A stretch of DNA of 64,000 bases from a phage. How positions within the stretch are numbered: position 1 is the stretch's first letter; each line of letters opens with the position of its first letter. Under the pieces are notes generated by a model. That model was not told the origin of the DNA and did no database searches. It worked only from the letters and a program-made list of their open reading frames with translations. This document shows positions 23,976 through 40,153 of this stretch, piece after piece. The translations under genes and the position numbers were made by a program. The stretch lies in NCBI GenBank assembly GCA_012338575.1, contig GCA_012338575.1_3616.1. The stretch is one strand, 5' to 3'.

Positions 23976-24260
23976 CTACCAGGTTACTGTCAAGTAGGCA
24001 ACCGTGTTATTTTTCTCTGGAGAGATGCCAACAACATCTACCTGCAGACCTCCTGCCCTCAAATCCCCAACAATATGCGGGAAGTAATCTGAGAGATGTG
24101 AGGGTAGATTTATCGAAAATCCGCATCCCAGAAAGCCTGCTAACGCTTTATTTTGTATCTCCCCTACAATCGCATCATAAATGGAGTTAAGCTCGTCAGG
24201 GAGCGTTACAGGACGTTTTAGCGCTAACTGGTGCAACTTGTCCTTAGCACTCATTTTCAT
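23976..24260 (-). CDS. hypothetical protein (about 94 aa)
   Basis: Internal ATG preceded by GAGG chosen as start. Confidence 0.4.
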   Translation of the reverse strand: MKMSAKDKLHQLALKRPVTLPDELNSIYDAIVGEIQNKALAGFLGCGFSINLPSHLSDYFPHIVGDLRAGGLQVDVVGISPEKNNTVAYLTVTW

Positions 24261-24790
24261 TTCAAATCTGCCTCTGGTGGTGCCAACCACATAAACGGCG
24301 GCAAGTCTAAACGGTTTTTCTTATCCCACACAAAATATGCATATGCTTGCCCGTCAGTTCTGCCGTTTGATTGAAATGATGGACGCTTAGATATTGTGAT
24401 CACAGTAGTAGGTGCATTATCAAGCCACCATTCAAATCTGGCTTTGCTTTCCAGAAAATTAAGACGCAAAAGCATAATAACTACGTCAGCATCTTTCAAC
24501 GCCTTGTCTACAAACTCACGAGCCAGGCTGTATGGTGGGTTGGTGATAATACAGTCAACATGGTTGTATTCTGTATTCAGATAGTCAACACCTTCTTGTA
24601 TTTCTCCCCATGCAGATCCTAACGGCATACGGGAGTAGAACACACCTGAGGCACTATTCCTGCAAGGCTCTAAGTAGGTCCAGTCTTCTGGGAACGGAAT
24701 AAGGTCATACAGCCCTTCTGCACACCACTCCGGTGTCACATACTCATCGTAGGCGTTACGTTGTTCATCAGGTTTTCTAGCACAAGTCAT
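24257..24790 (-). CDS. DNA N6-adenine methyltransferase-like (NPPY motif)
   Basis: IITNPPY catalytic motif and upstream acidic SAM-region; 177 aa. Confidence 0.55.
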   Translation of the reverse strand: MTCARKPDEQRNAYDEYVTPEWCAEGLYDLIPFPEDWTYLEPCRNSASGVFYSRMPLGSAWGEIQEGVDYLNTEYNHVDCIITNPPYSLAREFVDKALKDADVVIMLLRLNFLESKARFEWWLDNAPTTVITISKRPSFQSNGRTDGQAYAYFVWDKKNRLDLPPFMWLAPPEADLK

Positions 24791-24807
24791 GCAAATCTCC
24801 AGATCAT

Positions 24808-24830
24808 AAAAGCCCTCCGAAGAGGGCTTT
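24808..24830 (-). terminator. hairpin terminator (possibly bidirectional)
   Basis: AGCCCTC-cgaa-GAGGGCT flanked by AAA and TTT. Confidence 0.5.
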
Positions 24831-24841
24831 AGAATTAATGT

Positions 24842-25891
24842 TTAAGCTTCTTCGACAATTCCTGCACCCAGGATTTTTTCATTGAGCTCTTTTGCTGTTT
24901 TAATAATATTGTCCACCAGACGCTTGCGAGTCTTATCTTTCACCTTAACCTCTTCACCGCCGTTCAGAGTAGTCTTCAATTGAGACAGAATATCCTGAAG
25001 TTCGACGACAGAGAATCGCTGCAGATCTTCTGAAGTAATTTCACCCAGGGCGATCCGGACGGTCTCGCCACTTTCCATCTGCAGATTCAGGAACACAGTG
25101 TGAACATCATCTTTCATACCATTTGCTTTTGCAGACTCAACAGCATGAACTAACTCATCTAAAGATGTGCATTGGTGAACCTCTGGCAGGCCTGCTTCGC
25201 CTAGCACACCCTCTTCATCACTTTTTGCCAAAAGCTTTTTCGGTTTCTGTCCATTCTGAATGCGCTGAATGTTTTCATCGTCCAGAATGATAGCACCAGT
25301 TCTAGATGCCAGCTCTTCTCCATCTAACCACACTTCACCGCCAGCTGTGATGGATGCGATCTCATCTTCTGTCAGCACCCCACCGTAGTATTTTTCGATC
25401 AGGCGTTCAAAACGTTTTTTCCAGTAGCTGACTTGAGTATTCATGTTCACACCGTTACCATAAGTGCCACCTTGATAGTAGTGGAACATAAACTCTGTGT
25501 CCGGAGCCACAGTACGTTCTTTACAACCAAGCCATAAGATTGTTCCAGCAGAGCAGCACATCCCTTCAGCATGTGCAACAACGCTTGCCTGAGACTCTCG
25601 GAATGCCTGCAGATAAGCCATTGCAATGTGCACGCAACCCCCAGGGCTATTGATGATCACCCTAATGCTTTCTTCCGGCTGAGCCATACGGATCGTCTGC
25701 AGACGAGACATATGATCTTGTAAGTCTTCCAAATCGTCGATATAAAGAACGTGGTCAACAACAGGTGTTGGGTAGCTGTATGTTTCCATGATACCGCCCG
25801 GCATACCAAACATTTTATTACTCATAGGTTCGAAACCGTTCTGTTTTTCTTTCATGCCGTGTACCATGGTGCTGCGAGGTGTTAAATTCAT
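24842..25891 (-). CDS. ClpP-family serine protease homolog with long C-terminal extension
   Basis: INSPGGCVHIAMAYLQAF...GMCCSAG...MFHYYQGG aligns with recalled ClpP INSPGGVITAGMSIYD...GQAASMG...MIHQPLGG (Ser and His conserved); 349 aa vs about 207 for ClpP. Confidence 0.65.
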   Translation of the reverse strand: MNLTPRSTMVHGMKEKQNGFEPMSNKMFGMPGGIMETYSYPTPVVDHVLYIDDLEDLQDHMSRLQTIRMAQPEESIRVIINSPGGCVHIAMAYLQAFRESQASVVAHAEGMCCSAGTILWLGCKERTVAPDTEFMFHYYQGGTYGNGVNMNTQVSYWKKRFERLIEKYYGGVLTEDEIASITAGGEVWLDGEELASRTGAIILDDENIQRIQNGQKPKKLLAKSDEEGVLGEAGLPEVHQCTSLDELVHAVESAKANGMKDDVHTVFLNLQMESGETVRIALGEITSEDLQRFSVVELQDILSQLKTTLNGGEEVKVKDKTRKRLVDNIIKTAKELNEKILGAGIVEEA

Positions 25892-25951
25892 GAGAAATCC
25901 TTAATATTGGAAGTTGAAAGCTATTTATTTAAACCTGATTCACATTTACCT

Positions 25952-26263
25952 TTATTTAGCAATCACTATAGAGTACTTACGATTGTCAGAAGCATCACAG
26001 CTCAATGATTGCCAGTCTACCACATACCACGTATCATTGTCAACAATTACTTTATCGCCTGTTCTGTAGCAGGTGCTGCTTTCAATAATCCGAGACTCGA
26101 TAAAGAATCTGTGTCGGCGCTCACGTAGCAACGCTAAGTTGATTATATTACCACCACTGTCCTTGATCCATACATTCTTGGATCCTTTATATGCCAAAAT
26201 TGTCTCGCCGTTATAGACAAACAGGCAGTATATTTTATTCAGTCTCTCTTGTATTGTAGCCAT
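25952..26263 (-). CDS. hypothetical protein (103 aa)
   Basis: ORF. Confidence 0.45.
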   Translation of the reverse strand: MATIQERLNKIYCLFVYNGETILAYKGSKNVWIKDSGGNIINLALLRERRHRFFIESRIIESSTCYRTGDKVIVDNDTWYVVDWQSLSCDASDNRKYSIVIAK

Positions 26264-26361
26264 ACTATCTCCCTCTCTTGTCAGATAATAATATCTAAAG
26301 CTTTACCTGTTTGTCAACAACTGTTTTAGATATTTAAGGGTGGAATAACCACCCTTCTGCA

Positions 26362-27150
26362 TTACTCGGAAACAGGGGTCCAAATATGATTTGCACGATC
26401 CTCAATAAGATTGAGTGCGATCTGACGGCCCAACCCGGAACGAACGACATCGTCTGGACTATCAAAGCTGATCATTCCAACCTCAGGATCTGGATGACGA
26501 GTAAAGAAATCCGTCACCCATGCAAGGCCAGATTTACCAGGGATGTCACGTTGGCTATTATCGCCCATAATTACAAGGGTGGCCTGATCAGAGATCCTTG
26601 TGATAATTGACAACATTTCTTCAGGGTTAGTTTGCTGTGCCTCGTCAATCAGGACAAAGCACCGCTCATCGAAACTACGACCACGAATGCTTTCAACTTC
26701 ACAAATCTCGATACGGCTGTTCTGACCGTCTCCCAGCATTGCGGCAAAAGCACCTTTGCCAACACGACGACAAATCGTGTCCATCATGCTACGAAGGTAA
26801 GGCCAAAGCTTCTGCATTGACGTTCCCGGTTTGTATCCGCTTGATTTTCCGGTCTGTACATAAGGACGTGCAACAATGATCTTATCAATCTCATTCTTAC
26901 GCAGAAGATCACCTGCATATGCAGATGCCATGAATGTCTTACCGGATCCAAACACACCGTTTACAATAATAATCTTACGTGACCCTAGATAATCAAGATA
27001 CTTTTGCTGCTTTTTATTCATCGGTCGGAGAGCTGGAGCGGTGTGCTCTCGTTCGTCAGCAAATTTCTCAGCAGCTTTACGCAGGCGATCAGATTTGCGA
27101 GCCTCTTTAGCTTCATCACGCATGCGTTTTGTTTCTTTAGCTCGACCCAT
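26362..27150 (-). CDS. phoH: PhoH-like ATPase
   Basis: Walker A GVFGSGKT, RGRSFDERCFVLIDEAQ and GDNSQRD motifs typical of PhoH. Confidence 0.7.
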   Translation of the reverse strand: MGRAKETKRMRDEAKEARKSDRLRKAAEKFADEREHTAPALRPMNKKQQKYLDYLGSRKIIIVNGVFGSGKTFMASAYAGDLLRKNEIDKIIVARPYVQTGKSSGYKPGTSMQKLWPYLRSMMDTICRRVGKGAFAAMLGDGQNSRIEICEVESIRGRSFDERCFVLIDEAQQTNPEEMLSIITRISDQATLVIMGDNSQRDIPGKSGLAWVTDFFTRHPDPEVGMISFDSPDDVVRSGLGRQIALNLIEDRANHIWTPVSE

Positions 27151-27188
27151 GTTGGGACTCCTTTCAGATTGAGATGTGTCTGGAACTT

Positions 27189-27539
27189 TTACTGCAACAG
27201 TTTTTCAATAGCCGCTTCCATGCTGCTTGCAACAGCCTGAACTCGGATATTCATCTCTTCTTGGTGGATCAGCTCCTTAAGCTCTTTAATGGTAAATTCT
27301 TTAGAGAAACCCTCCACCATAATCTTGTGCAAGGCTTCTTGCGTGTCTACTTGCAAGAACTTTTCCAGTTTGTTGGCAGAGGCTTCTAAATCAGCCCGAA
27401 TACGAGGGTCATCTGTGCGATTCAGCATTAGGCGTAAACCATCAAGATTAGTGGAAATAGCGTCTGCATGTTGAGTAACTAACCGTGGCAAAATGAGATC
27501 TACAAACTTATTAGCCAAATCGATACGTTCTTGTGTCAC
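27189..27539 (-). CDS. hypothetical protein (116 aa, GTG start)
   Basis: ORF. Confidence 0.45.
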   Translation of the reverse strand: MTQERIDLANKFVDLILPRLVTQHADAISTNLDGLRLMLNRTDDPRIRADLEASANKLEKFLQVDTQEALHKIMVEGFSKEFTIKELKELIHQEEMNIRVQAVASSMEAAIEKLLQ

Positions 27540-27649
27540 TGTTGCACCCCCTCTTCATCTTCATGATGTTTCTTTTCACGCTTGTGTTTTTTCTTAAGCT
27601 CAAGCGCAATCTCTTTCTTGTACGCCTTCTTCAAGGCTTTTTTAGCCAT
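27536..27649 (-). CDS. small lysine-rich protein (37 aa)
   Basis: ATG after AGGAGG (6-nt spacer); MAKKALKKAYKKEIALELKKKHKREKKHHEDEEGVQQ; stop overlaps downstream GTG; not in ORF track. Confidence 0.45.
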   Translation of the reverse strand: MAKKALKKAYKKEIALELKKKHKREKKHHEDEEGVQQ

Positions 27650-27711
27650 TTGGCACCTCCTCTGCTTTCATTACGACAATTATAACCAACTTAACAAAGC
27701 TTTGTCAACAA

Positions 27712-28185
27712 CTAGTCTACCTGAACCCAACCGCCTGATACTTTTTTAAACATTCTTTGGTTATCACTACCTCGGAACGGTTTCTTGGTTGGTAAATCTT
27801 TTACATACTTACCGTCAATGATGATATCAGCCAGTTTAAGAACATCACTAGAGATATGGTCAAATGTGAACCCAGTATATACAAGAATAGTTTTCTTGTC
27901 ACCAAATTTTTCCTTAATTTTCTCCATCAGGCTAATAATATCTGGCTCATTATAGTATGCTAAGGGTTCTCCACCCAGCAGAGAGATACCGCACACAGAC
28001 GGGTTATCTAAATCTGACAAGATTTTTTGCAAGTCTTCTTCAGTGAACTCCCTCCCCTTATCTTTTGACCAAAATGCCTGATTAAAGCAACCAGGGCAAG
28101 CGTGTGGGCACCCAGATACCCACAAGGCAGTTCTAATACCTGGCCCTTCGGTGTAAGATATTTCTGTGTATCCGACAATGTTCAT
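27712..28185 (-). CDS. nrdG: anaerobic ribonucleotide reductase activating protein (radical SAM)
   Basis: GPGIRTALWVSGCPHACPGCFN matches recalled E. coli NrdG GPGTRCTLFVSGCVHECPGCYN (CxxxCxxC cluster). Confidence 0.8.
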   Translation of the reverse strand: MNIVGYTEISYTEGPGIRTALWVSGCPHACPGCFNQAFWSKDKGREFTEEDLQKILSDLDNPSVCGISLLGGEPLAYYNEPDIISLMEKIKEKFGDKKTILVYTGFTFDHISSDVLKLADIIIDGKYVKDLPTKKPFRGSDNQRMFKKVSGGWVQVD

Positions 28186-28298
28186 AGATACTCCGCATCA
28201 CATTTAGGGCAATGCCAGATAAAATCGTCTAGTGCCTTGCACCAACGAAGATTGCAACTACAGCCGCACTTGCAAATTTTATAAATACCTGTAGACAT
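28182..28298 (-). CDS. small Cys-rich zinc-ribbon-like protein (38 aa)
   Basis: ATG after AGGAGG; MSTGIYKICKCGCSCNLRWCKALDDFIWHCPKCDAEYL (8 Cys); stop overlaps nrdG start (ATGA); not in ORF track. Confidence 0.5.
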   Translation of the reverse strand: MSTGIYKICKCGCSCNLRWCKALDDFIWHCPKCDAEYL

Positions 28299-28350
28299 AC
28301 TGTACCTCCTTAGTTTATAGCATGTTTAAGATATGTGTATCTTTCTACGA

Positions 28351-29283
28351 TCATTTACCACAAATCTTCTTGTATACCTCTTCTACCGTGTCAAACACTT
28401 CAGGCCTGTAGTAGAAAAACTCAGTGCTACCGTCAAATTTTACAGGAAAGTTTATTTTATACTTGCTGAAGGCCTTATGCACAGATTTTTCTAAATCTAC
28501 CATGTTTTGAGTTGATCCGCTCCACGTTTTTACTACGTGAAGAGTGTGGACACCTGCGCCAGATTTACGAGCACTGTTAAGCACCTCATTTTTCCTCCTG
28601 TGCATTTTAACGCATACACCGATTTTCATAAGTGTTGGCACTTCTAAGTCATCAACCATAATGTAGAGTTTACCGTACTCATGAGATAAGAATCCATTTT
28701 GTGCGCATTTACAGCAGCCACGACCACTTTTTAGGTTATTAGGTTTAGCAGACCACTTATACCCACAAATTTTGCACCTACATTGCACTTTTGTGTTATC
28801 ATTGGTAATTTTCTCTAATATTTCTATGTCTGGGTTGGCTTTGTGGATAATTGCAGCATGCTCCTTATGGGTTAACGCTTGACTTTGCCCACGTCTTAAG
28901 TCATAGCACTCTGGGCAGCCGTTTCTTTGGTATAAGTGGTTTTCAGGGTATTGTTCAAACACACCGTGTTCAGGGCAAACAATTTTTACAGGCGTTCTCA
29001 TGTTCGCATATTTGACTAATGAGTAATCGTACTTGTCCCCATGAGCAGCCATAGCCTCTTTTATGAACTCTTCAGTGTTCTTTTTCGCTGACCCACCACA
29101 CCTTGGACAACCATGCTTCTTGAAAGCATGTGCCACAGGGGTTTGCCAGAACTCACCGTGCTCAGGACAAATTATACACACAGGTGTCTTGTTGTTTTTA
29201 TACTCCACTTTGAAGTAATCATATTTGTCACCATGTATAGTCTGAGCTTTTTCTATAAACTCTTCGGTTGTTAGTCTCCTCAT
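28351..29283 (-). CDS. free-standing homing-endonuclease-like protein (GIY-YIG/T5orf172-like C-terminal domain, duplicated N-terminal zinc-ribbon repeats)
   Basis: Two tandem repeats of HGDKYDY...CPEHG.F...GCP.C; C-terminus GKLYIMVDD..LMKIGV...GSTEFFYY resembles GIY-YIG-like T5orf172 pattern (family assignment from memory). Confidence 0.5.
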   Translation of the reverse strand: MRRLTTEEFIEKAQTIHGDKYDYFKVEYKNNKTPVCIICPEHGEFWQTPVAHAFKKHGCPRCGGSAKKNTEEFIKEAMAAHGDKYDYSLVKYANMRTPVKIVCPEHGVFEQYPENHLYQRNGCPECYDLRRGQSQALTHKEHAAIIHKANPDIEILEKITNDNTKVQCRCKICGYKWSAKPNNLKSGRGCCKCAQNGFLSHEYGKLYIMVDDLEVPTLMKIGVCVKMHRRKNEVLNSARKSGAGVHTLHVVKTWSGSTQNMVDLEKSVHKAFSKYKINFPVKFDGSTEFFYYRPEVFDTVEEVYKKICGK

Positions 29284-29323
29284 TACCAGACCAGACCCTT
29301 CCGCTATTCACTTTATATTGCAT

Positions 29324-29350
29324 ACTATAGAAAAGAGGAATAGAAGTCAA
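29324..29350 (-). promoter_or_regulatory. sigma70-like promoter for the endonuclease-like gene (TTGACT, 15 bp, TATAGT)
   Basis: On minus strand TTGACT (29350-29345) and TATAGT (29329-29324). Confidence 0.4.
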
Positions 29351-29382
29351 TAAAAACAAAAAATGAGAGCATCCTTGCTCTC
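29351..29382 (-). terminator. rho-independent terminator after nrdD
   Basis: GAGAGC-aaggat-GCTCTC followed by ATTTTTTGTTTTT on minus strand. Confidence 0.65.
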
Positions 29383-29393
29383 AATCTCTTTCC

Positions 29394-30671
29394 TTATTTA
29401 CTCAACGGACACCAGTCTACATTCCCAACATGTTTAACACGTTCGATAACCTCTGCTTGTTTACCTGTGTTATACGGTCTACTGTTCGGGCTGGAGAGAT
29501 AGCCAGACACTCTTCGGATCACTGAGATATATTGTTCATCGTGGCATCCGCACGCAGGGCAGCAGAACCCTTTAGCTGTTGCACTGAACTCACCAGAGAA
29601 ACCACACTTAAGACATTTATCCACAGGTTGGTTAATACCAAAATACATAATGTGTTTATACCCGAAGTCAACAAGAGCCTCTAAAGCATCTAAGTTGTTT
29701 TTCAGATTTGGTGTCTCTACATATCCGATGTTGCCACCAGAGGAGATCATAGCAAAACCTTCCTCATACGCCCACTTATCAAAAGGAGAGCTATTGATCC
29801 ATACTGGCTGATGGAAACTGTTGGTGAGATATTCATGCTCGTGCTTCAACACTTCAGGATATTCACGATCCAGACAGGTTGCAGCTTTATAGCATAGACT
29901 CTCAGAAGGGGTGCCGTACAAGCTAAACGCTAGTCTACTTTCCTTCTTGTATCGCTCACAAGCATCTCTCATGTGCTGAAGGATTCCAAGAGCTAAAGCC
30001 TTGTCACCCTCTCTGCCCAAAATCTGACAGGTTTCATACACACCGATATACCCAATACTGATGGAAGCGTACCCGTCATAGAAGAGTTTATCAATACTCT
30101 CTTCAGGATCCAGGCGGGCAAGAGCGCCTTCACACCACATGATGGGGTTCTGCCCTGCCTTTGTTCCTTTTAGACGGTTAACCCTTACAAGGTGAGCCTC
30201 GTATGCAAGATCCAAGTATTCGTCAAGAACCGCAAAGAAATCAACACCTTCCGTCTTAGCTTTTGCCGCAATCATTGGCAGGTTAAGGCTAACAACACCC
30301 AAGTTGAATCTGCCAAGGTATTTCTCCTCACCTGTTTCCAAGTCATTGTATTTGCTAAGAAAACTCCGGCAACCCATGCTCGTTACTTTGCCATCTGTCG
30401 AGCCTGTCACTTTTCTATTTAGTGGTACAGATACGAAGTCAGGGTAGATACGTTCTGCACAGCATTCCAGAGCTAATCGTTTCAAATCATAGTTAGGATC
30501 CCCAGGGTTCATGTTGACACCCTCTTCCAGGAAGAACAGCACTTTAGGGAACACAGGTGTAATACGTTCTTCACCAAGACCCATTTTGTGGACTTTCAAG
30601 TAGTTTTTGGTAATCATTCTACCAAAGACCGAGGTATCCAGTCCTAAACTTAATGTGATAAAAGGGGTTTG
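29394..30671 (-). CDS. nrdD: anaerobic ribonucleoside-triphosphate reductase, exon 2 (glycyl-radical domain)
   Basis: Begins QTPFITLSLGLDTS (cf. recalled E. coli QTPFVTFGFGLGTS); contains GDPNYD, C-rich zinc site and RVSGYL glycyl-radical motif. Confidence 0.8.
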   Translation of the reverse strand, partial: QTPFITLSLGLDTSVFGRMITKNYLKVHKMGLGEERITPVFPKVLFFLEEGVNMNPGDPNYDLKRLALECCAERIYPDFVSVPLNRKVTGSTDGKVTSMGCRSFLSKYNDLETGEEKYLGRFNLGVVSLNLPMIAAKAKTEGVDFFAVLDEYLDLAYEAHLVRVNRLKGTKAGQNPIMWCEGALARLDPEESIDKLFYDGYASISIGYIGVYETCQILGREGDKALALGILQHMRDACERYKKESRLAFSLYGTPSESLCYKAATCLDREYPEVLKHEHEYLTNSFHQPVWINSSPFDKWAYEEGFAMISSGGNIGYVETPNLKNNLDALEALVDFGYKHIMYFGINQPVDKCLKCGFSGEFSATAKGFCCPACGCHDEQYISVIRRVSGYLSSPNSRPYNTGKQAEVIERVKHVGNVDWCPLSK

Positions 30672-30928
30672 CGGTCCCCACCCTTATGTTTCCACAAGGC
30701 CAGACTATCTCTTGCCTGAAATCACACCGTGTGATTCTTAATCAGACCTCTGCGTTTCGGAATCTTCCATAATCCCTACACCAAAAGGTTAGTCGTTACA
30801 ACCGCCTCACTCCTTGTGAAGCTAGTCACGGGATTGGCATAGCTTTCGCCTTAGCGTTCCCCGTTAGCCAGCGATCAGCTGACCCCTCATACTGAGGTTA
30901 GCAGAGTTTTAAAACGGCCAGTTTGTTA
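30672..30928 (-). mobile_element. group I intron (ORF-less, td-like core) interrupting nrdD
   Basis: 257 nt with no ORF; exon 1 ends in T, intron ends in G; contains AACGGGGAAC, CAATCCCGTG, AACGACTA, CCGAAACG, GATAGTCTGG strings recalled from the T4 td intron core; splicing restores a 712-aa NrdD. Confidence 0.75.
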
Positions 30929-31789
30929 ACCGTTGACAGAAGTTAACGTATTGATTTGATAGAGCAAAGTCTGCATGCTGTCAAATACGTCTTTATCTGT
31001 CATTTGCATTGCAACAGTTTCGGCATCTGGCAACCAATGTTCCTGGCAAAATTTAAGGTTCTTCTCATAGGTTGCTTCAACATACTGTGCCAGATAATGA
31101 TCAATATGGCTCATAGTCTGACCACCATATTGAGCACTAGCTACCGCACTGGAGATTTGGCTAAGGATTGTTGTTGCAACCCCTATTGACTTCGGCTTAC
31201 TGACATGAGCGTTACCAATGTTGAATCCGTTTTCCAACATATCTGGATAGTTTACCAAACAACAGTTTGTTAACGGACTGATCAAGTAGTCAAGATCATG
31301 CACATGGATGAAGCCTTTATTGTGCTCTTCTGAGACACGGTCTGGCAGGATCTGTGTTGATGCAAGGTGTTTGCTAAGGATGCCTGCAAGCAGGTCACGA
31401 TGAGTGTGTACATGATTGGTAGGCTTATTTGCGTTTTCTTTTGTAAATTCATCACAAGTGCGATCCAAGAAGCCACTAATATCTGCAAGCAGTTTTCCAC
31501 CTGCCTCTCTGTTATTATCTCTTGTCTGCCTATACTGGATGTATTCTCTGGCTGCACATTTTAAACCCATATCCATAAGAGCGTCTTCAACAAGGATATG
31601 GATATTTTTTACAGAGATCGTGCACTGGTCGGTTGGTAGATTGTTAGCAACAACTTCATTAACCGCGCAGGCGATCCGGTAAGCTTCTTCTTCAGTATGT
31701 CCAGACTCAAGTAAGGCGGACTCTGCCGCCTTGATCACCTTAATTCCGTTATAGACCTCTTCTCTGCCGTCCCGTTTTACAACTTTCAC
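30929..31789 (-). CDS. nrdD: anaerobic ribonucleoside-triphosphate reductase, exon 1 (ATP-cone and N-terminal half)
   Basis: MKVVKRDGREEVYNGIKV ATP-cone; HDLDY, GFNIGNAHVSKPKSI; ends ...NTLTSVNG as in recalled E. coli ...NTLHTANG. Confidence 0.8.
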
Positions 31790-32064: not shown

Positions 32065-32067
32065 ATA

Positions 32068-33195: not shown

Positions 33196-35511
33196 TTACA
33201 GTGCACAGCTTTCGCAATACGGATCTTCAACTGAACTATCTGCAATCAAAGGATAGTTCTTTCTGGTTTCATCTTCAGCTTGTTTCTTGGCATGAAGTTC
33301 CTCTGCCAAGGAGTCACCAGCACCAACTCTGGAGTTTAAATAATACCATGTCTTCATCCCGAATTTAGTGGCACGGATAAGGTACCCTAGCTGCTCCTTC
33401 ATTGAAATTTTACCATCTTTCAACTTGGTGTAGTCTATGTATAAATCCGCGCTGATTGCCTGGCCTGTGAATTTTTGAATCACAGCGTACATATCGATCA
33501 TATCGTTAGTATCAACGTCCCAAGCCGAAGTGTAATACTCTTTCAGCTCATCGTATTCAGGAACGATAAACAGCACCTGCCCTTGTGGCGATTTTTTAAA
33601 GATAATGTGCTCACGGACAGGATAAACCCCGTTAGTGGTGTTTGTTGCCAGCGAAGAGCTTTCATTAGGCATATATGCTTCAAGAACGCTATTACGTAGC
33701 CCACCGTTTTCAATGATTTCTTTACGTAACCCTTCCCAATCCTGTTTAAGAGAAGGATCTTTCACCACGCTATCGACCTCTTTGTTATAGGTGTCGATTG
33801 GTAACCAACCTTCTGGATATTTTGTTTTATGCATCCACTCGCAGACACCACGCTCTTTTGCCAACCGTAAACTTGCCTTATGCAAGCTGTAGCTGTGAAG
33901 TTCTGCAAGATCGTGAACAAGCTGTTTACTTTCAGGAGATCCGTAAGTAATCTTGTGGCTGGCAATAAAATGTGCAACGTTGGTAAGGCCAACCCCGATG
34001 GATCTGCGTTTTTTAACAGTGCTCTCCATATTTTCATACGGATATGTCATGATTTCCATAACATTGTCAATCATAAGCACCGTGTAGTATGCAACATCCT
34101 CATACTCTTCTGGAGTAACCCTTCCAGCTACAAGGGATGACAGGAAGCACAATGCAACTTCGCCGTCATCAACATCGTGCTTGAAGATATTACGCATATC
34201 TGAATAGCCTTTTGTCGGGAGGGCTATTTCTGCACACAGGTTACTTGAATAGATCACATCTTTAAAAGGTGTATGTCTATTCATCTCGTCTGTCCAGTAT
34301 ACGTACAGCCTTCCAACCTCAGTACGCTGCGTGATCAGCTCAACAGCAAGATCTCTAGCTCGGATCCATGTTTTAGGAATACTATCATCTTTAGCTATAC
34401 GATCAACCTCTGCATCAAACTCCTCCATAGACATGGTGAAGATACCTTCATGCAGTTGAGGCGCGTGCTTATAAGAAACAAGCATCCAATCTAAATTCTT
34501 AGCCACACGGTTGATAAACGACCTATTAATACCTATAGAGTAGTCCATGGTGTTGATTCTTTTTGAAGCAACAGTCATAGGGTTTCTCAAACGGATTAGC
34601 TCATCAATCTGCGGGTCTAGTGCAAGAAATGATACTGTTGCAGAACCGCCACGTGATTGTTGTCTGTTCTCCTTAACCCCAGCATCAATACCTCGATAAT
34701 ATGGAATCTTACCCATATGTTTAATAGTGTTACCACGAACACCATCGCCTGCAGATCTTGATGATAAATAGTAGCCGATACCTGCTTGGTTAACCGTCAT
34801 TGTGTACGCAACTTCACGTGCCACACCAATAGATTTTGCTGTATCGTCAGCTTTTATTACACAACAAGATGCATACCCTGTCTTACCTGTGCGCAGCCCG
34901 TTTAAGTACGGTGTCGGGGCATTGATCTTTAAGTCGGACAGATAAGTGTATAATTTTACAACATCGTTGATACGACGTTCTTTCGGCATATTCTTCATGA
35001 CAGCCATTGCTATCCCCATAAACATCATCTGAGGAGATTCAAACAAGGTGTCTTTAAGAGTATCCTTGATCCCGTATTTGTCGCGAAACTGTTTAAGGAC
35101 TGCATAGCCATAACCGAGATCTTTACTGTGATCAATAACAGTGCCTAAAGTGTTTAACTCGGTAAAGCTATAACCCATATCCTCCCAATACCCTTTCTCA
35201 ACCATGTCGTTGTAAAATGATGGTAAGGAAGGGATCTTTGTAAACCCTCCAAAAGCCTCTTTATAAATCTGACCAATAAGAACACGACCAGCCATACGGG
35301 AATGTGCTTCGTCTTTACGGCTAACACAGGAGTCTATAATAGCTTGGTTAACTTCTTTGGTTGTACATCCATCATACAGTCGTTTGTATGCATCCAGTGC
35401 AATATGTGACCAATTGCCGTTACCGTCGTCACCGAAAATAGCTGCCTTATTTAAACGTTCTGGATCGAATGCCACTTCACATCCGTTACTTTTAATTACC
35501 TTGGTGATCAA
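33196..35511 (-). CDS. nrdA: ribonucleotide reductase class Ia alpha subunit
   Basis: 771 aa; N-terminal ATP-cone (VIKSNGCEVAFDPERL); catalytic NLCAEIALPT motif. Confidence 0.85.
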   Translation of the reverse strand: MITKVIKSNGCEVAFDPERLNKAAIFGDDGNGNWSHIALDAYKRLYDGCTTKEVNQAIIDSCVSRKDEAHSRMAGRVLIGQIYKEAFGGFTKIPSLPSFYNDMVEKGYWEDMGYSFTELNTLGTVIDHSKDLGYGYAVLKQFRDKYGIKDTLKDTLFESPQMMFMGIAMAVMKNMPKERRINDVVKLYTYLSDLKINAPTPYLNGLRTGKTGYASCCVIKADDTAKSIGVAREVAYTMTVNQAGIGYYLSSRSAGDGVRGNTIKHMGKIPYYRGIDAGVKENRQQSRGGSATVSFLALDPQIDELIRLRNPMTVASKRINTMDYSIGINRSFINRVAKNLDWMLVSYKHAPQLHEGIFTMSMEEFDAEVDRIAKDDSIPKTWIRARDLAVELITQRTEVGRLYVYWTDEMNRHTPFKDVIYSSNLCAEIALPTKGYSDMRNIFKHDVDDGEVALCFLSSLVAGRVTPEEYEDVAYYTVLMIDNVMEIMTYPYENMESTVKKRRSIGVGLTNVAHFIASHKITYGSPESKQLVHDLAELHSYSLHKASLRLAKERGVCEWMHKTKYPEGWLPIDTYNKEVDSVVKDPSLKQDWEGLRKEIIENGGLRNSVLEAYMPNESSSLATNTTNGVYPVREHIIFKKSPQGQVLFIVPEYDELKEYYTSAWDVDTNDMIDMYAVIQKFTGQAISADLYIDYTKLKDGKISMKEQLGYLIRATKFGMKTWYYLNSRVGAGDSLAEELHAKKQAEDETRKNYPLIADSSVEDPYCESCAL

Positions 35512-35738
35512 TTTGCTTCCTCCACTTCATTAACGTATTTATCAAGGCAGGTATCAGTATCTTGCTGGATAAAGGTATCCTCTTCTACAGAGATATTTAT
35601 AATTTTACCTGTATACTCGTCATAATAAACATCATCATACATTTTAATATCGTTTGTCAGACCGTTGAACCAAAGCCAACCAACATATTCTGCCCGACTT
35701 GCAAAACCAAGATCCTTCCACTTGGAGTTATGACTCAT
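35508..35738 (-). CDS. hypothetical protein (about 76 aa) coupled to nrdA
   Basis: Internal ATG after AAGGTGG; stop overlaps nrdA ATG. Confidence 0.45.
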   Translation of the reverse strand: MSHNSKWKDLGFASRAEYVGWLWFNGLTNDIKMYDDVYYDEYTGKIINISVEEDTFIQQDTDTCLDKYVNEVEEAN

Positions 35739-35748
35739 CTTCACCACC

Positions 35749-36249
35749 TTAGCTTTCAATACCGAATAATTTTTCCAGGCGATGCAGATCTTCAAAATTG
35801 AAAGGTTCATCAACAATATGAATATCTTCAGCCTTTTCAGATTGTTTTGTATACTTTCTTACATTAACACGATCCTCTACAGGGATATCATACGGAAGAT
35901 CTTGAACAAGCATTGCCTCACCGGGTGCTTTATCTACATCTAAAATATCTACACCGTTATACATTTGTGGGTATCTAAAGTCTGCACGCATGACACCAGC
36001 AAATACATCTGCCTTTCGATAATGTGTTGGCTTATTTCTGCATCGAACGTTTTTTCCACGAAGAACATCAATACTTTTTAAATCAAACCCTACGGCAAAG
36101 AGTGCAGCTCGGAGACCGTTTCGTGTGCGAACGTTAAACCCGGGAACGGTAGATAGGAAATCTAAAGTAACTGAAATAAATGTCTTTTTAGGAATCATAA
36201 CATTACTCATATCTGTCTCCATTTCTGGCTCACCAACAAAGTGAGCCAT
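35749..36249 (-). CDS. hypothetical protein (166 aa) in nucleotide-metabolism operon
   Basis: ORF; no family recognised. Confidence 0.45.
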   Translation of the reverse strand: MAHFVGEPEMETDMSNVMIPKKTFISVTLDFLSTVPGFNVRTRNGLRAALFAVGFDLKSIDVLRGKNVRCRNKPTHYRKADVFAGVMRADFRYPQMYNGVDILDVDKAPGEAMLVQDLPYDIPVEDRVNVRKYTKQSEKAEDIHIVDEPFNFEDLHRLEKLFGIES

Positions 36250-36308
36250 TATTATAGATTATCTGATAGTATTAGTCAACACAGAAGTTACCTATCGCTG
36301 TGATAGGA

Positions 36309-37292
36309 TTAACCTTTCACGAAGTGGTTATTAAGCAGTTGTCTGTGCTGAACCCACCCACAAAAGTTGGCAGACCAGAATTTACCATCACGGTCTTGAT
36401 GGGTTACACCTTCCTGCCAAACACAGCTGTCTTGTGTGATTTCACATGAAGATAGATAGTAGTTTAAACGTTCCATTGCGTTATCGTGATCCATAGGTGT
36501 TGCCTGGTGCTCGTAAGGGCTTGCATGAATACGATCCCCACCAATCAATTTTTTAGCCACACTGTCTGCCTTTTCAAACGTGCTGTCAATATTTCGATAA
36601 GATACTTGTGCACAGCAACTAGCACTGATAGACAGAGCTTCTTTAGTATCGAGGATGCAGAGCTTTCCTTCTGTGTCACGTACAGCGTAGTTAAACTCTC
36701 CGTCCAAATAAACGTGCTCTACATATGGGGTGTGCCATTGACCCGGTTTAAGGATCTCAGAGGTGCTATTCACAAGAGCTTCCCACATGCAATTAGCCAA
36801 CATCTGAATCGTAGGATCCGCATCGTGCCAGCAACGGAGGTGGAAAAAATTATTCCACTCGGTGCTTGTTACAACTGTTTTCATGCGTTGAAAAGGCTCC
36901 ACTAAGCGGTTACATACTTGCTTATGGTAACCAGCAAGGGCGAACTTCTCTGCATGCCAAGCGGCGTTTTTTGCAGCTTCTTTCCAAAATTCTTCAGGAG
37001 TTAACTCCATGTCAGTGTACTCTACACGGATCTTTTGATCGTGTTCCCCACCATCTTCCATCCCTCGCTTATTTGCACCGAAGCGAACTGGCATTGCAGG
37101 ATTCTCCACAATCTGTTGCAGCATCTTGCCGACAGGAACTGCACGGGAAGACATGGCGTTTCGGCTGAATACTCGATGCGTCATAAGCTCTGAGTGAATA
37201 ATTCGAGGATACTCTAGCTCAAAAGTGGTGATGCGCTTACCTTTCTCGGAAATGCTGTCAGCAATGATCTTTGCAGTGCACAGTTTTAGCAT
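36309..37292 (-). CDS. putative flavin-dependent thymidylate synthase (ThyX-like, divergent)
   Basis: ELMTHRVFSRNAMSSRA resembles ThyX RHRx7S signature but with T in first position; 327 aa is longer than typical ThyX. Confidence 0.4.
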   Translation of the reverse strand: MLKLCTAKIIADSISEKGKRITTFELEYPRIIHSELMTHRVFSRNAMSSRAVPVGKMLQQIVENPAMPVRFGANKRGMEDGGEHDQKIRVEYTDMELTPEEFWKEAAKNAAWHAEKFALAGYHKQVCNRLVEPFQRMKTVVTSTEWNNFFHLRCWHDADPTIQMLANCMWEALVNSTSEILKPGQWHTPYVEHVYLDGEFNYAVRDTEGKLCILDTKEALSISASCCAQVSYRNIDSTFEKADSVAKKLIGGDRIHASPYEHQATPMDHDNAMERLNYYLSSCEITQDSCVWQEGVTHQDRDGKFWSANFCGWVQHRQLLNNHFVKG

Positions 37293-37492
37293 TATTTAGC
37301 TCTCCTTGTTTTAATTTTGGAAATTTCGTCTGGGTTTATGTTGGCCTTAAATGCAAGGTATCTGTTGAACATATCGGAGCACATGTCTTGGGTGATCCTG
37401 GAGGCATACACCAGCTTACCTCCCAGATCATACACCTCTAGCCAGTCACCGTATCTGACTACAGGATCGCCACCTTTAGAACATCTGCCCAT
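37292..37492 (-). CDS. hypothetical protein (66 aa)
   Basis: ORF; stop overlaps downstream start. Confidence 0.45.
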   Translation of the reverse strand: MGRCSKGGDPVVRYGDWLEVYDLGGKLVYASRITQDMCSDMFNRYLAFKANINPDEISKIKTRRAK

Positions 37493-37493
37493 T

Positions 37494-38087
37494 TCAAATA
37501 CCTTCTAAAAACTTTCCTATTTTATACCAGCTGTTAGCGGTATAGTCAACACTGACCTTTAACTCCTCGAATTGCTCATAAGGCGTATCTTTTAGGATTT
37601 TAATAACTTCAGGTCGTGAAGCGAATTGGTTCAGGTATTCATGCCTGTCGTCAATTATAACATCTACAGCCACATTTCCTTTGAAATGTGTGGCGTAGAA
37701 GCCGTGACCCTGGGTGTGATCGTCCAGATCCATAAAATCACTGGTCCAACGCTTTAAGAACCTTGATTTAGATGCAAGGTGACCTTTCTTGCATACCGAG
37801 ATAAATGCAAGCTTGTGACCACGAGCCACCAAATCTTTCATAACCTCAATAGCCCCCTCTTCGGGCTTAAGAAAGTCGTAGAGGAACGGGTCACTCCAGA
37901 AATCAAAAGGCCCTATGATGTTTTCTTTGGGGCGATCAGGCCAATACTTTGACAGATCGTAATACATTAACCCATTAGAAGGTTTAGCGACTGTCTTACT
38001 GGCTGGACCATACAAACGCTCCAACCACTCCCACCATGCTGTTCCTGAGTCTACCAGTGTCAGATCTACATCAATTCCGATTAACAT
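37494..38087 (-). CDS. HAD-superfamily phosphatase (possible 5'(3')-deoxyribonucleotidase)
   Basis: N-terminal IGIDVDLTLVDSG matches HAD motif I (DxDxT). Confidence 0.45.
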   Translation of the reverse strand: MLIGIDVDLTLVDSGTAWWEWLERLYGPASKTVAKPSNGLMYYDLSKYWPDRPKENIIGPFDFWSDPFLYDFLKPEEGAIEVMKDLVARGHKLAFISVCKKGHLASKSRFLKRWTSDFMDLDDHTQGHGFYATHFKGNVAVDVIIDDRHEYLNQFASRPEVIKILKDTPYEQFEELKVSVDYTANSWYKIGKFLEGI

Positions 38088-38698
38088 TCTTCTTGGGCCT
38101 CTTTAGCATCAATATACTTGCACACAATCTCCGATGCACACTCCCAAGGTGCACCTTCAGGGTTTACAACATCAAACTCAACCCCTTTTATTCCGTTATT
38201 TTCCAGACTTAGATAGGTTCTGGAATCATTTCCCCAGTCATATCCGACACGGTGAATACGGAACAACAACAGATCTCCACCTGTGCTGTATGCGTACTCA
38301 CTAAGGCATGCCAGCTCCTCTTTGAATCCACCATCGGAGTAAACAACAACCCCTTTACCTTTAGGGAAATCTTTCTTCAAGGATGTGACTGCGGCCTTAC
38401 CGAAAGCATCTTCACCAAAGATAGGTTTAATCAGATTTTCACTACAATGGATCATCCATTCTCGCGGAGAAACATGCTTGCCGTCTATCATTAAGAAAGG
38501 GCAAGGATCTTCTTTGTAGTGGCGGTCATAAAGTGCATTCCAGAGTTGAGGAGTTACACCAGCTGCCTTAATTGCCACACTGAAGAGCATCTCCTTAACC
38601 TCACGGTGGTGTGAGTTAGGAATAGCTTCCAACAAGAGATCTGCAATGTGGTCCTTACCACTGCTTGGTGGGGCGTTAAGAACAATAATATCCATCAA
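38081..38698 (-). CDS. deoxynucleoside monophosphate kinase-like P-loop protein
   Basis: IIVLNAPPSSGKDHIADLL resembles recalled T4 gp1 IFLSGVKRSGKDTTADFI. Confidence 0.5.
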   Translation of the reverse strand: MMDIIVLNAPPSSGKDHIADLLLEAIPNSHHREVKEMLFSVAIKAAGVTPQLWNALYDRHYKEDPCPFLMIDGKHVSPREWMIHCSENLIKPIFGEDAFGKAAVTSLKKDFPKGKGVVVYSDGGFKEELACLSEYAYSTGGDLLLFRIHRVGYDWGNDSRTYLSLENNGIKGVEFDVVNPEGAPWECASEIVCKYIDAKEAQEEC

Positions 38699-38898
38699 AA
38701 ACCTCCGTGGTATTCTTCAACTGCATCAATAATACTTTTACACTTATCTACCAGCTCGTTAGCCACTACAGCATCGTCTTCCCAAACAGCCTCTTCAATC
38801 TGATCAAGCAATGATCGCATTTTATCCATCATTTCTGGGATAAAGTTTTCTGAAAAGCTGTCTGGAACTGTTAACTTTAGTGTCATTGCGGTCTCCAA
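38695..38898 (-). CDS. hypothetical acidic protein (67 aa)
   Basis: ORF. Confidence 0.4.
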   Translation of the reverse strand: METAMTLKLTVPDSFSENFIPEMMDKMRSLLDQIEEAVWEDDAVVANELVDKCKSIIDAVEEYHGGF

Positions 38899-38913
38899 TC
38901 ATACTATTCGTTA

Positions 38914-39372
38914 TTAGAAGTTTGTTTTTACACGTCCCTTTTCATCTACCTCATTGTTAGCTAAAAGCGTTACAAAGTCTGTGAAACGGACATGAAGAAC
39001 TCTTTTCTTGTCAAGGTATCCTAAAGCCACCCCTGAAAAATTTAGCATCAAGGGGGCTAAAGAAGCTCTAGCACTGAAATGCTGTTGTTCTACTCTTCCA
39101 ACACCTTTAGTGTAGGATGGGTTAAGATTGTAAGTTCTGAATCCCAGTTTTGTTGGAGCTTTAGAATTAAAAACAACTTTATAGCGTTTCTTACTCAACT
39201 TATGCTCCAGGATAATAATTCCCTTATCACCCTTGATAAGTTGAAAATCTGTAAAGTGCTCTTTTAAGACGAAAGGTAGTGCCAGTCCCATAGCCTGGCC
39301 TCTTTGTACCGCTGTCTCACCAAAAGCTTTTGCATCAGTAAGTTCTTTGGTCAAGTCTATGCTTTTGATCAT
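38914..39372 (-). CDS. hypothetical protein (152 aa; start uncertain)
   Basis: ORF overlapping 3' end of upstream methyltransferase gene. Confidence 0.4.
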   Translation of the reverse strand: MIKSIDLTKELTDAKAFGETAVQRGQAMGLALPFVLKEHFTDFQLIKGDKGIIILEHKLSKKRYKVVFNSKAPTKLGFRTYNLNPSYTKGVGRVEQQHFSARASLAPLMLNFSGVALGYLDKKRVLHVRFTDFVTLLANNEVDEKGRVKTNF

Positions 39373-40153
39373 ACCGGGTCTCCAAAATGTATTGTAGTTC
39401 TTTCTTGCCTATACTCTTCATTCCAGCAGTCTTACCTGCTTCTTCTTGAAAAGAAGAATAGCATTCAGCAAACACTCTGTCAACACCGTCAACTAAAGAT
39501 TTTATGAAATATGTAGATTCTTCAGATTTTGGATCATCATCACCCAATACTTTTCCAGCGTTATACCCAACACGTCTTACACAGAAGTCGTAGTCATCCG
39601 GTGTGCTAAAAGAAAATAACTTATTCTCTCCAATATCTACAGGATCCCTATTGCACTCCTTCTTCTCCCAAATTTGGAAAACACATGGCACGTCATAAGG
39701 TTTGCCATTAAGTAAAAACGAGTTCTTAGGGCACCTTTCGCTGTAGACAAGGTGCATAGACATGTCCAGTTTGTTTGAAAAAAATATTTTTTCAAATGTC
39801 CGTGGCAAGATGAAGGCTATAGCCCCGCCAAGCTCTAGCAATGATGCACAATGGTTAAAGAATTTGCAAGCTAAAGATGAATTCTTACCAAACGGTGGGT
39901 TACCTATGAAGACATCTGCCTTGGGGTGCACCTCCAAGAAGTTTGCCTGGATGCACGGTGTTGGTCCTTCAAATTCAGGATCTGGTACTAAATCGTACGA
40001 CAGTATCTCTGAAAATAGTTTTGAAAAAGAACCTCTTCCAGCAGAAGGCTCAACGTATGCACAATTCCCATACTTATCTTTTACTTTACCAACAAGATAT
40101 TCTGCATACTCAGGGTTTGTGTAATATTTGTCGTTGGACTCTTTCTTACTCAA
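39335..40153 (-). CDS. DNA adenine methyltransferase (gamma-class-like, NPPF motif)
   Basis: SAM-binding EPSAGRGSF and catalytic VFIGNPPFG motifs. Confidence 0.65.
   Translation of the reverse strand: MSKKESNDKYYTNPEYAEYLVGKVKDKYGNCAYVEPSAGRGSFSKLFSEILSYDLVPDPEFEGPTPCIQANFLEVHPKADVFIGNPPFGKNSSLACKFFNHCASLLELGGAIAFILPRTFEKIFFSNKLDMSMHLVYSERCPKNSFLLNGKPYDVPCVFQIWEKKECNRDPVDIGENKLFSFSTPDDYDFCVRRVGYNAGKVLGDDDPKSEESTYFIKSLVDGVDRVFAECYSSFQEEAGKTAGMKSIGKKELQYILETRYDQKHRLDQRTY

What the first reader, a model, noticed from the sequence alone, without database searches (positions are those of the whole stretch)
24257..40153. Two different DNA adenine methyltransferase-like genes (NPPY and NPPF types)
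24257-24790 carries IITNPPY; 39335-40153 carries FxGxG-like EPSAGRGSF plus NPPF. Two orphan methyltransferases of different classes suggest protection against more than one host restriction specificity.
Basis: partly seen in the sequence, partly recalled or inferred. Interest (0 to 1): 0.35.

Follow-up and report, generated by a model that had tools for sequence, protein, structure and literature searches.

The report
Two phage DNA adenine methylase genes
The window comes from an rV5-like E. coli phage with two real adenine methyltransferase genes: one is identical to an enzyme already shown to methylate GATC on phage DNA, and the other probably makes the GTAC methylation seen on the same DNA, so the finding is correct but largely known.

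Summary
Both ORFs exist as described, on the minus strand. ORF-A is 24257-24790 (177 aa, IITNPPY). ORF-B is 39335-40153 (272 aa, VEPSAGRGSF + GNPPF). The window is a Vequintavirus (rV5-like) genome.

ORF-A is 177/177 identical to bas51_0176 of phage Bas51. A 2025 PLoS Biology paper showed this enzyme methylates GATC on virion DNA: 1405 methylated adenines in wild type against 35 in a T83P mutant. It is toxic in E. coli and triggers two retron defence systems.

The same data show about 510 methylated adenines at GTAC in both wild type and mutant. I count 258 GTAC sites (516 adenines) in Bas51, so GTAC is essentially fully methylated and independent of ORF-A.

ORF-B is my favoured GTAC enzyme (about 0.65). 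In bacteria its family sits in two-gene cassettes with an uncharacterised, possibly nuclease, partner. The rival is a type III Mod-like methylase (bas51_0070) outside the window.

Both proteins have motif I before motif IV (gamma/N12 order), and NPPY/NPPF varies within ORF-A's own family. A protective role is untested, and these phages are reported as very restriction-sensitive.

Verdict: real, ordinary, largely already known.

The parts
24257..24790 (-). ORF-A: a 177-aa minimal N6-adenine DNA methyltransferase with no separate target-recognition domain, specific for GATC
   Evidence: ORF. It hits phrog_799 'DNA methyltransferase' at 5e-67. It is 177/177 identical to Bas51 bas51_0176, whose T83P mutant loses GATC methylation. 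AF2 pLDDT is 90. Foldseek matches HsdM, PacII, BseCI and CamA, and also Dim1.
24638..24676 (-). ORF-A motif I (SAM-binding loop), YLEPCRNSASGVF, residues 39-51
   Evidence: It aligns to TaqI LEPACAHGPF in the profile search against PDB. E41 and P42 are nearly invariant in the family. Relatives read EPCRASGRF or EPCAGDGAI.
24530..24550 (-). ORF-A motif IV (catalytic), IITNPPY, residues 81-87; T83 is the residue mutated in the published loss-of-function phage
   Evidence: N84, P85 and P86 are invariant. T83P abolishes GATC methylation in Bas51.
39335..40153 (-). ORF-B: a 272-aa gamma-type N6-adenine methyltransferase, the candidate GTAC (GTm6AC) enzyme
   Evidence: ORF. It hits phrog_5172 (function unknown) at 7.5e-129 and phrog_799 at 3.5e-13. 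AF2 pLDDT is 93. Foldseek matches TaqI, StySJI M, BseCI and CamA, and also the RNA enzymes TrmN and PH1948. It is 269/272 identical to bas51_0200.
40025..40054 (-). ORF-B motif I, VEPSAGRGSF, residues 34-43
   Evidence: E35, P36, G39, G41 and F43 are invariant in 64 sequences. It aligns to TaqI LEPACAHGPF.
39890..39904 (-). ORF-B motif IV, GNPPF, residues 84-88
   Evidence: G84, N85, P86, P87, F88 and G89 are invariant. All 120 listed homologues have NPPF.
39338..39646 (-). ORF-B C-terminal domain (residues about 170-272), the presumed target-recognition domain
   Evidence: It is confidently modelled, but PDB matches cover only the N-terminal domain (TM-score on the query 0.40-0.49). Family-wide conserved residues are R193, R194, G196, G200, S247 and E252. 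These are kept in bacterial cassette members.
40158..40191 (-). Terminator-like hairpin (40172-40191) followed by a GGAGG ribosome-binding site (40158-40162), just upstream of the ORF-B TTG start
   Evidence: Sequence; terminator scan.

Best explanation
The window comes from an rV5-like Vequintavirus. It carries two orphan SAM-dependent N6-adenine DNA methyltransferases of the same (gamma, motif I then motif IV) architecture but different sequence specificity.

ORF-A is a minimal 177-aa enzyme with no separate recognition domain. During infection it methylates essentially every GATC in phage DNA. This is shown for the identical protein of phage Bas51. Host Dam does not substitute for it.

ORF-B is a 272-aa enzyme with a TaqI-like catalytic domain plus a conserved C-terminal recognition domain. 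I infer that it methylates the adenine of GTAC. Both marks end up on packaged DNA.

The most likely benefit is immunity to restriction enzymes that cut unmethylated GATC or GTAC. This is inferred, not shown. A known cost is that the GATC methylase is sensed by retron defence systems.
For: **Identity of the phage**
- The window is 97-99.7% identical to many Vequintavirus genomes.

**ORF-A**
- It is 177/177 identical to bas51_0176. Of the four methyltransferase genes of Bas51, only this one has D69, D79 and T83, the three residues mutated in the paper.
- Nanopore 6mA counts in PMC12548924 are: wild type GATC 1405, GTAC 509, other 576; T83P mutant GATC 35, GTAC 511, other 349.
- Bas51 has 703 GATC sites (1406 adenines) and 258 GTAC sites (516 adenines). 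Both motifs are therefore about 99-100% methylated, and GTAC methylation does not depend on ORF-A.

**ORF-B as a methyltransferase**
- All family-invariant SAM-binding and catalytic residues are present.
- The model is confident and has an adenine-methyltransferase fold.
- The profile hits TaqI and Ta1320.

**ORF-B as a DNA enzyme with a palindromic target**
- In 16 of 80 bacterial loci, a homologue is followed, mostly with overlapping or closely abutting reading frames, by a conserved protein of about 210 aa with conserved E, D and SxK residues.
- Two look-ups that started from the partner protein again found an ORF-B homologue upstream with an 8-nt overlap. The pair sat as a two-gene island between housekeeping genes.
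- The only other adenine methyltransferase in Bas51, bas51_0070, is type III Mod-like (PDB Mod 1.4e-28, EcoP15I Mod 2e-24). From established knowledge, that group typically targets asymmetric sites on one strand.
- The characterised GTAC enzyme M.HpyAXII is likewise a TaqI-like gamma enzyme with motif IV at N87, against N85 in ORF-B (PMC2588503).
Against: - No experiment links ORF-B to GTAC. The paper does not assign the GTAC mark, and bas51_0070 remains a possible source.
- The best solved-structure sequence match of the ORF-B profile is an RNA-methylase-like protein (Ta1320, 2e-4; METTL5, 0.04). Some homologues are labelled 'predicted RNA methylase' by JGI.
- The bacterial partner protein has no detectable similarity to any known nuclease, so calling the cassette a restriction-modification system is an inference.
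- A test for GTAC avoidance in loci with and without the partner showed no difference (observed/expected 0.78 against 0.76).
- An anti-restriction benefit is untested, and Vequintavirinae are reported as highly restriction-sensitive.
Confidence: 0.7

Rival explanations
1. GTAC methylation is made by the type III Mod-like beta-class methyltransferase (bas51_0070 homologue, outside this window). ORF-B then has another DNA target, contributing to the 349 'other' methylated adenines, or is weakly active.
For: Bas51 encodes a third intact adenine methyltransferase with a strong PF01555 hit at 4e-42. 349 methylated adenines outside GATC and GTAC remain in the T83P mutant, so at least one further activity or caller noise exists. 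Nothing experimental ties ORF-B to GTAC.
Against: From established knowledge, Mod-type enzymes normally recognise asymmetric 5-6 bp sites and methylate one strand. GTAC is a palindrome methylated on both strands at about 99%. About 275 sites would be expected for an asymmetric 5-bp motif in 140 kb, which is close to the 'other' class. ORF-B-type enzymes pair with a small candidate nuclease in bacteria, as type II enzymes for short palindromes do.
Confidence: 0.22
2. ORF-B is an RNA (rRNA or tRNA) N6-adenine methyltransferase of the METTL5/Ta1320 kind rather than a DNA enzyme.
For: The best PDB profile hit is Ta1320 at 2e-4, and METTL5 scores 0.04, both sharing NPPF. Foldseek hits include TrmN, PH1948 and Dim1. 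JGI labels several homologues 'predicted RNA methylase', and one homologue passes the Pfam RrnaAD threshold.
Against: DNA methyltransferases (TaqI, StySJI M, BseCI, CamA) score equally well. ORF-B has an extra conserved C-terminal domain absent from the roughly 200-aa Ta1320. The gene lies in the DNA replication, recombination and nucleotide-metabolism block. Bacterial homologues form mobile two-gene cassettes typical of restriction-modification. An unassigned DNA mark, GTAC, needs an enzyme.
Confidence: 0.06
3. The methylases serve the phage's own DNA transactions, such as blocking MutH nicking of new DNA, or marking DNA for packaging or replication control, rather than evading restriction.
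For: In the T83P mutant almost no GATC adenines pass the 60% methylation threshold, so host Dam evidently does not fully methylate phage DNA. The phage enzyme therefore makes a real difference to GATC status. Vequintavirinae get no visible protection from the restriction systems tested. Both genes sit among replication and nucleotide-metabolism genes. The retron paper's statistics table lists significant differences between wild type and each methylase point mutant on the retron-free host, and the tabulated titres are roughly two-fold lower.
Against: The methylase point mutants are viable and still plate on E. coli K-12, so the function is not essential there. The lower titres may simply reflect different phage stocks. 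The restriction systems tested do not cut at GATC or GTAC, so they say nothing about cognate protection. ORF-B relatives sit in restriction-modification-like cassettes.
Confidence: 0.25

Closest known systems
Bas51 (Escherichia phage WalterGehring, MZ501111) N6 adenine methyltransferase bas51_0176, characterised in PMC12548924
   Same: Its amino-acid sequence is identical to ORF-A (177/177). It methylates GATC on phage DNA, is toxic in E. coli, and triggers Retron-Asa1 and Retron-Squ1.
   Different: Nothing at the protein level. The window is a different isolate, about 92-98% identical in DNA to Bas51.
Small phage Dam methylases (Pfam PF05869 'Dam', NCBIfam TIGR01712; T1/HP1-type)
   Same: They are about 170 aa, have no separate recognition domain and are phage-borne. 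They are GATC-specific from my own knowledge of the T1 and HP1 enzymes. ORF-A gives co-linear weak matches (E 0.001), and a family member gives 1.6e-5 over profile positions 9-129 of 169.
   Different: ORF-A scores below both curated thresholds (19.2 against 28.1 bits; 16.1 against 97 bits). It belongs to a separate PHROG, phrog_799.
M.TaqI and other gamma-class N6-adenine DNA methyltransferases
   Same: The motif order is the same, with motif I before motif IV. Motif I is EPxxxxG-type and motif IV is NPP(Y/F). The fold is the same.
   Different: ORF-A lacks the large C-terminal recognition domain of TaqI. The C-terminal domain of ORF-B is about 100 aa and has no structural match. Sequence similarity is marginal (E 1e-5 and 0.03).
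M.HpyAXII of Helicobacter pylori (GTAC, m6A; PMC2588503), also M.PabI and M.CviQI
   Same: It is a TaqI-like gamma enzyme with its catalytic domain at the N-terminus and motif IV at residue 87, against 85 in ORF-B. It makes GTm6AC, which blocks RsaI.
   Different: It is 331 aa and is paired with a PabI-type 'half-pipe' enzyme. The partner of ORF-B relatives shows no match to PabI-family structures. Homology to ORF-B could not be tested because no sequence was available here. Known GTAC methylases are only 8-18% identical to each other.
E. coli Dam (alpha class)
   Same: It has the same target, GATC, and makes the same product, N6-methyladenine.
   Different: It has a different architecture and family. 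No D12-class Pfam hit is listed for ORF-A. ORF-A is less than two-thirds the size, going by the length of E. coli Dam as I recall it.

Membership tests
Gamma-class (N12) N6-adenine DNA methyltransferases | SAM-binding motif I lies N-terminal to catalytic motif IV, (D/N/S)PP(Y/F/W) | tested here: met
   ORF-A has motif I at residues 39-51 and NPPY at 84-87. ORF-B has motif I at 34-43 and NPPF at 85-88.
Gamma-class (N12) N6-adenine DNA methyltransferases | Class I Rossmann-like methyltransferase fold | tested here: met
   AF2 pLDDT is 90 and 93. Foldseek gives probability 1.00 to TaqI, HsdM, BseCI, CamA and PacII.
Gamma-class (N12) N6-adenine DNA methyltransferases | C-terminal target-recognition domain after the catalytic domain | tested here: inconclusive
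   ORF-B has a conserved C-terminal domain of about 100 aa with no structural match. ORF-A ends at residue 177 with no extra domain.
Gamma-class (N12) N6-adenine DNA methyltransferases | Site-specific N6-adenine methylation of DNA | not testable with these tools
   For ORF-A this is met through published work on the identical protein, with target GATC. For ORF-B it is only inferred, with target GTAC.
Pfam PF05869 / NCBIfam TIGR01712 small phage Dam | Score above the curated threshold | tested here: not met
   ORF-A scores 19.2 bits against 28.1 (PF05869) and 16.1 against 97.05 (TIGR01712). It works like this family but is not filed in it.
Alpha-class Dam (E. coli Dam / T4 Dam type) | D12-class methyltransferase domain, with the recognition domain between motif I and DPPY | tested here: not met
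   No such Pfam hit is listed for either protein at E up to 1. Motif IV follows motif I by only about 45 residues.
METTL5/Ta1320-type RNA m6A methyltransferases (considered for ORF-B) | Significant similarity over the whole protein, which is a single domain of about 200 aa | tested here: inconclusive
   The profile hit to Ta1320 is 2e-4 over residues 4-110 only, and METTL5 scores 0.04. ORF-B has an additional C-terminal domain.
Type II restriction-modification system | Cognate restriction endonuclease gene adjacent to the methyltransferase | tested here: not met
   In the phage, the flanking ORFs are a DnaQ-like exonuclease and a phrog_9938 protein. Neither is related to the bacterial partner family. 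No partner homologue is found in the window or in Bas51. Both genes are orphans here.

The most novel reading that the evidence does not exclude
ORF-B represents an uncharacterised family (phrog_5172, function 'unknown') of GTAC-specific m6A methyltransferases. Its bacterial members, found mainly in Sphingomonadales, Rhodobacterales and marine or sponge-associated MAGs, form a previously undescribed type II restriction-modification system. The partner is a family of about 210 aa (628 proteins, all annotated as hypothetical; phrog_6892) that would be a new restriction endonuclease family. The phage copy would be an orphan antidote to that system.
Probability: 0.4. Interest if true: 0.3.

Novelty: already known. 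Interest (0 to 1): 0.15.

Why it matters
The finding itself adds little. Many GenBank records of rV5-like phages already annotate both genes as putative adenine methyltransferases, and the activity of ORF-A was demonstrated in 2025.

Two modest points remain useful:
- Published nanopore counts, combined with my site counts, show that every GTAC in a Vequintavirus genome carries m6A from an enzyme nobody has named. ORF-B is the leading candidate, and a single knockout would settle it.
- Knowing that these abundant, therapy-relevant phages carry fully GATC- and GTAC-methylated DNA matters for predicting which hosts restrict them, and which methylation-sensing defences (retrons, DpnI-like enzymes) they trigger.

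Tried and rejected
- **Direct sequence searches against PDB:** both proteins gave nothing useful. Profiles were needed.
- **NCBIfam:** no hit for ORF-B.
- **PF26055:** it is precomputed for some ORF-B homologues. The local Pfam scan did not report it and no paper mentions it, so I could not use it.
- **GTAC avoidance:** I compared bacterial loci with and without the candidate nuclease partner, using a Markov observed/expected ratio. The values were 0.78 and 0.76, which is uninformative.
- **Identifying the partner protein:** Pfam, NCBIfam, a PDB profile search and source names all gave nothing.
- **Foldseek against viral structures:** I hoped for a named GTAC methylase such as M.CviQI. Only uncharacterised phage proteins and DarB-like large proteins came up.
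- **The ORF downstream of ORF-B as a degenerate partner homologue:** rejected, hhalign probability 0.2%.
- **The small ORF downstream of ORF-A as a conserved partner:** there is no detectable similarity between the window's 94-aa ORF and the 88-aa ORF in a related phage contig.
- **The rV5 genome paper:** it contains nothing on methylation or restriction.


Full report
**What is there**

- ORF-A is 24257-24790 (ATG start, 177 aa, IITNPPY at residues 81-87).
- ORF-B is 39335-40153 (TTG start, 272 aa, VEPSAGRGSF at residues 34-43 and GNPPF at 84-88).
- ORF-B starts behind a GGAGG ribosome-binding site. That site follows a terminator-like hairpin at 40172-40191.
- ORF-A starts behind a GGAG, which follows a hairpin after the ClpP-like gene.
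- No other ORF of at least 100 aa in the window carries a [DNS]PP[YFWH] motif.

**Where the window comes from**

- Both regions are 97-99.7% identical to about 120 phage records of the rV5 group, genus Vequintavirus.
- Many of those records already annotate ORF-A as "DNA N-6-adenine methyltransferase" and ORF-B as "putative DNA N6-adenine methyltransferase".
- The 14.5 kb between the two genes holds PhoH, anaerobic and aerobic ribonucleotide reductases, thymidylate synthase and a dNMP kinase. ORF-B sits next to a DnaQ-like exonuclease and recombination nucleases.

**Are they methyltransferases, and of what kind?**

- *Curated libraries.* All Pfam hits are below threshold: EcoRI_methylase, Dam and Eco57I for ORF-A; Eco57I and MTS for ORF-B. 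NCBIfam gives nothing significant.
- *PHROGs.* ORF-A falls in phrog_799 "DNA methyltransferase" (5e-67). ORF-B falls in phrog_5172, "unknown function" (7.5e-129), with a weaker hit to phrog_799 (3.5e-13).
- *Family size.* Homologue searches found 312 (ORF-A) and 793 (ORF-B) proteins.
- *Conserved residues.* T19, N84, P85 and P86 are invariant in ORF-A's family. D8, T12, E35, P36, G39, G41, F43 and G84-G89, plus a set of C-terminal residues, are invariant in ORF-B's family.
- *Profile searches against PDB.* ORF-A's family reaches M.TaqI (1.4e-5), PacII, HsdM subunits and ErmC. ORF-B's family reaches Ta1320 (2e-4), TaqI (0.03) and METTL5 (0.04).
- *Structure.* AlphaFold2 models are confident (pLDDT 90 and 93). 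Foldseek matches adenine methyltransferases acting on DNA (TaqI, StySJI M, BseCI, CamA, PacII) and on RNA (Dim1, PH1948, TrmN).

Both proteins have motif I before motif IV, the gamma or "N12" order. Within ORF-A's own family, 92 of 120 homologues read NPPY and 28 read NPPF.

ORF-A is a bare catalytic domain. ORF-B adds a conserved C-terminal domain of about 100 residues that has no structural match.

**Experimental evidence from the literature**

A search for Vequintavirinae plus 6mA found PMC12548924 (PLoS Biol 2025).
- *What the authors did.* They selected escape mutants of phage Bas51 on two retrons. All mapped to an "N6 adenine methyltransferase". They rebuilt D69G, D79G and T83P in a clean background.
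- *What they showed.* Wild-type virion DNA carries m6A at GATC, and T83P almost abolishes it. The enzyme is toxic in E. coli and triggers the retrons.
- *The counts, from their source-data table.* Wild type: GATC 1405, GTAC 509, other 576. T83P: GATC 35, GTAC 511, other 349.

Bas51 is Escherichia phage WalterGehring, MZ501111. I fetched its genome.
- It has four methyltransferase genes.
- Only bas51_0176 has D, D and T at positions 69, 79 and 83, and it is 177/177 identical to ORF-A.
- bas51_0200 is 269/272 identical to ORF-B.
- Bas51 contains 703 GATC sites (1406 adenines) and 258 GTAC sites (516 adenines).

Both motifs are therefore methylated almost to completion. GATC methylation depends on ORF-A, and GTAC methylation does not.

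From my own knowledge, E. coli K-12 has no GTAC adenine methylase (it has Dam, Dcm, EcoKI and the normally silent YhdJ). The GTAC mark must therefore be made by the phage.

**Who makes the GTAC mark?**

The candidates are ORF-B and bas51_0070.
- bas51_0070 is a 441-aa beta-class enzyme (PF01555, 4e-42). It is most similar to type III Mod subunits (H. pylori Mod 1.4e-28, EcoP15I Mod 2e-24).
- It lies outside this window. The window corresponds to Bas51 84.7-140.6 kb plus 1.9-8.4 kb.
- Mod-type enzymes normally mark asymmetric sites on one strand (established knowledge). That fits the residual "other" class better than a fully methylated palindrome.

Three observations favour ORF-B.
- Among 80 bacterial and archaeal loci encoding relatives, 16 have a conserved ORF of about 210 aa immediately downstream, mostly with overlapping or closely abutting reading frames.
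- That partner has invariant H10, G11, E15, K19, D41, P53 and K57. It has no match in Pfam, NCBIfam or PDB, and all 628 relatives are "hypothetical".
- Starting from the partner, two chromosomal examples again showed an ORF-B homologue upstream with an 8-nt overlap. The pair formed a two-gene island between housekeeping genes.

This is the layout of a type II restriction-modification cassette, though the nuclease activity is only inferred. The recognition-domain motifs of ORF-B (RRVG..AG, YF, TAG..S..K.E) are kept in the cassette methylases. The phage has no partner homologue.

The characterised GTAC enzyme M.HpyAXII is also a TaqI-like gamma enzyme with motif IV at residue 87, and GTm6AC blocks RsaI (PMC2588503).

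I put ORF-B as the GTAC enzyme at about 0.65, the Mod-like enzyme at about 0.22, and an RNA target for ORF-B at about 0.06.

**Function**

That the marks protect against restriction is plausible but untested.
- None of those cuts at GATC or GTAC (my own knowledge of their sites). The result is therefore compatible with site-specific protection, but it shows there is no general shield.
- In the T83P mutant almost no GATC adenines pass the 60% methylation threshold. Host Dam evidently does not fully methylate phage DNA.
- In the window, GATC occurs at the expected frequency (374 sites, observed/expected 1.09). GTAC is under-represented (116 sites, 0.60).
- The GATC methylase has a demonstrated cost, because it triggers retrons.

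**Verdict**

One is already characterised and both are already annotated. The only new element is the inference that ORF-B, a PHROG of "unknown function", makes the unassigned GTAC mark and that it belongs with an undescribed bacterial partner family.

Noticed in passing
L033:5788-6444, L012:5690-6289, L093:4001-4642, L094:4001-4669 and 12 other loci: A conserved protein family of about 210 aa lies immediately downstream of bacterial homologues of ORF-B, in most cases overlapping or abutting the methylase gene. It has 628 relatives, all 'hypothetical', and matches phrog_6892. Invariant residues are H10, G11, E15, K19, D41, P53 and K57, plus a QRRLQCS motif. It is a candidate new restriction endonuclease family with no hit in Pfam, NCBIfam or PDB.
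   Followed up: partly
outside the window; L091:14456-15781 and L091:17042-17806 (Bas51 64456-65781 and 67042-67806): Vequintavirus genomes carry two more methyltransferase genes not covered by this window. One is a type III Mod-like beta-class adenine methylase of 441 aa. The other is annotated 'Dcm-like C5 cytosine methyltransferase' and has no Pfam hit.
   Followed up: partly
window 23976-24260 (-): A 94-aa ORF (phrog_12158, function unknown) overlaps the end of ORF-A by 4 nt, so it may be translationally coupled. A related phage contig also has a small ORF in this position, but with no detectable sequence similarity.
   Followed up: partly
window 38914-39372 (-): A 152-aa ORF (phrog_9938, function unknown) overlaps the 3' end of ORF-B by 38 nt. 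It is not related to the bacterial partner family (hhalign probability 0.2%).
   Followed up: yes
whole window: GTAC is the second most under-represented 4-bp palindrome (116 sites, observed/expected 0.60, after CTAG at 0.58), even though it is fully methylated in the related phage. GATC is at expectation (374 sites, 1.09). CGATCG occurs only once.
   Followed up: no
GenBank records MG065635-MG065690 (hits H7, H8, H11, H12, H16, H17 and others): About 20 unannotated records named 'Campylobacter phage', with host listed as C. jejuni, are 97-99.7% identical to this E. coli rV5-like phage. This looks like mislabelling or contamination of those records.
   Followed up: no
window 27823-30788 and 54744-57372: These stretches have no long match to Bas51, while the flanks are 95-98% identical. 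The first lies in the anaerobic ribonucleotide reductase region, where relatives carry HNH or homing endonuclease insertions. The content probably differs by mobile endonuclease genes.
   Followed up: no
LR597654.1 (phAPEC8_ev052) 107665-108438: One record annotates the 54%-identical ORF-B homologue as 'DarB-like anti-restriction'. Foldseek also matched ORF-B to the methylase segment of phage proteins of 1000-1400 aa that contain a helicase domain. This suggests the catalytic domain is shared with DarB-type proteins.
   Followed up: no
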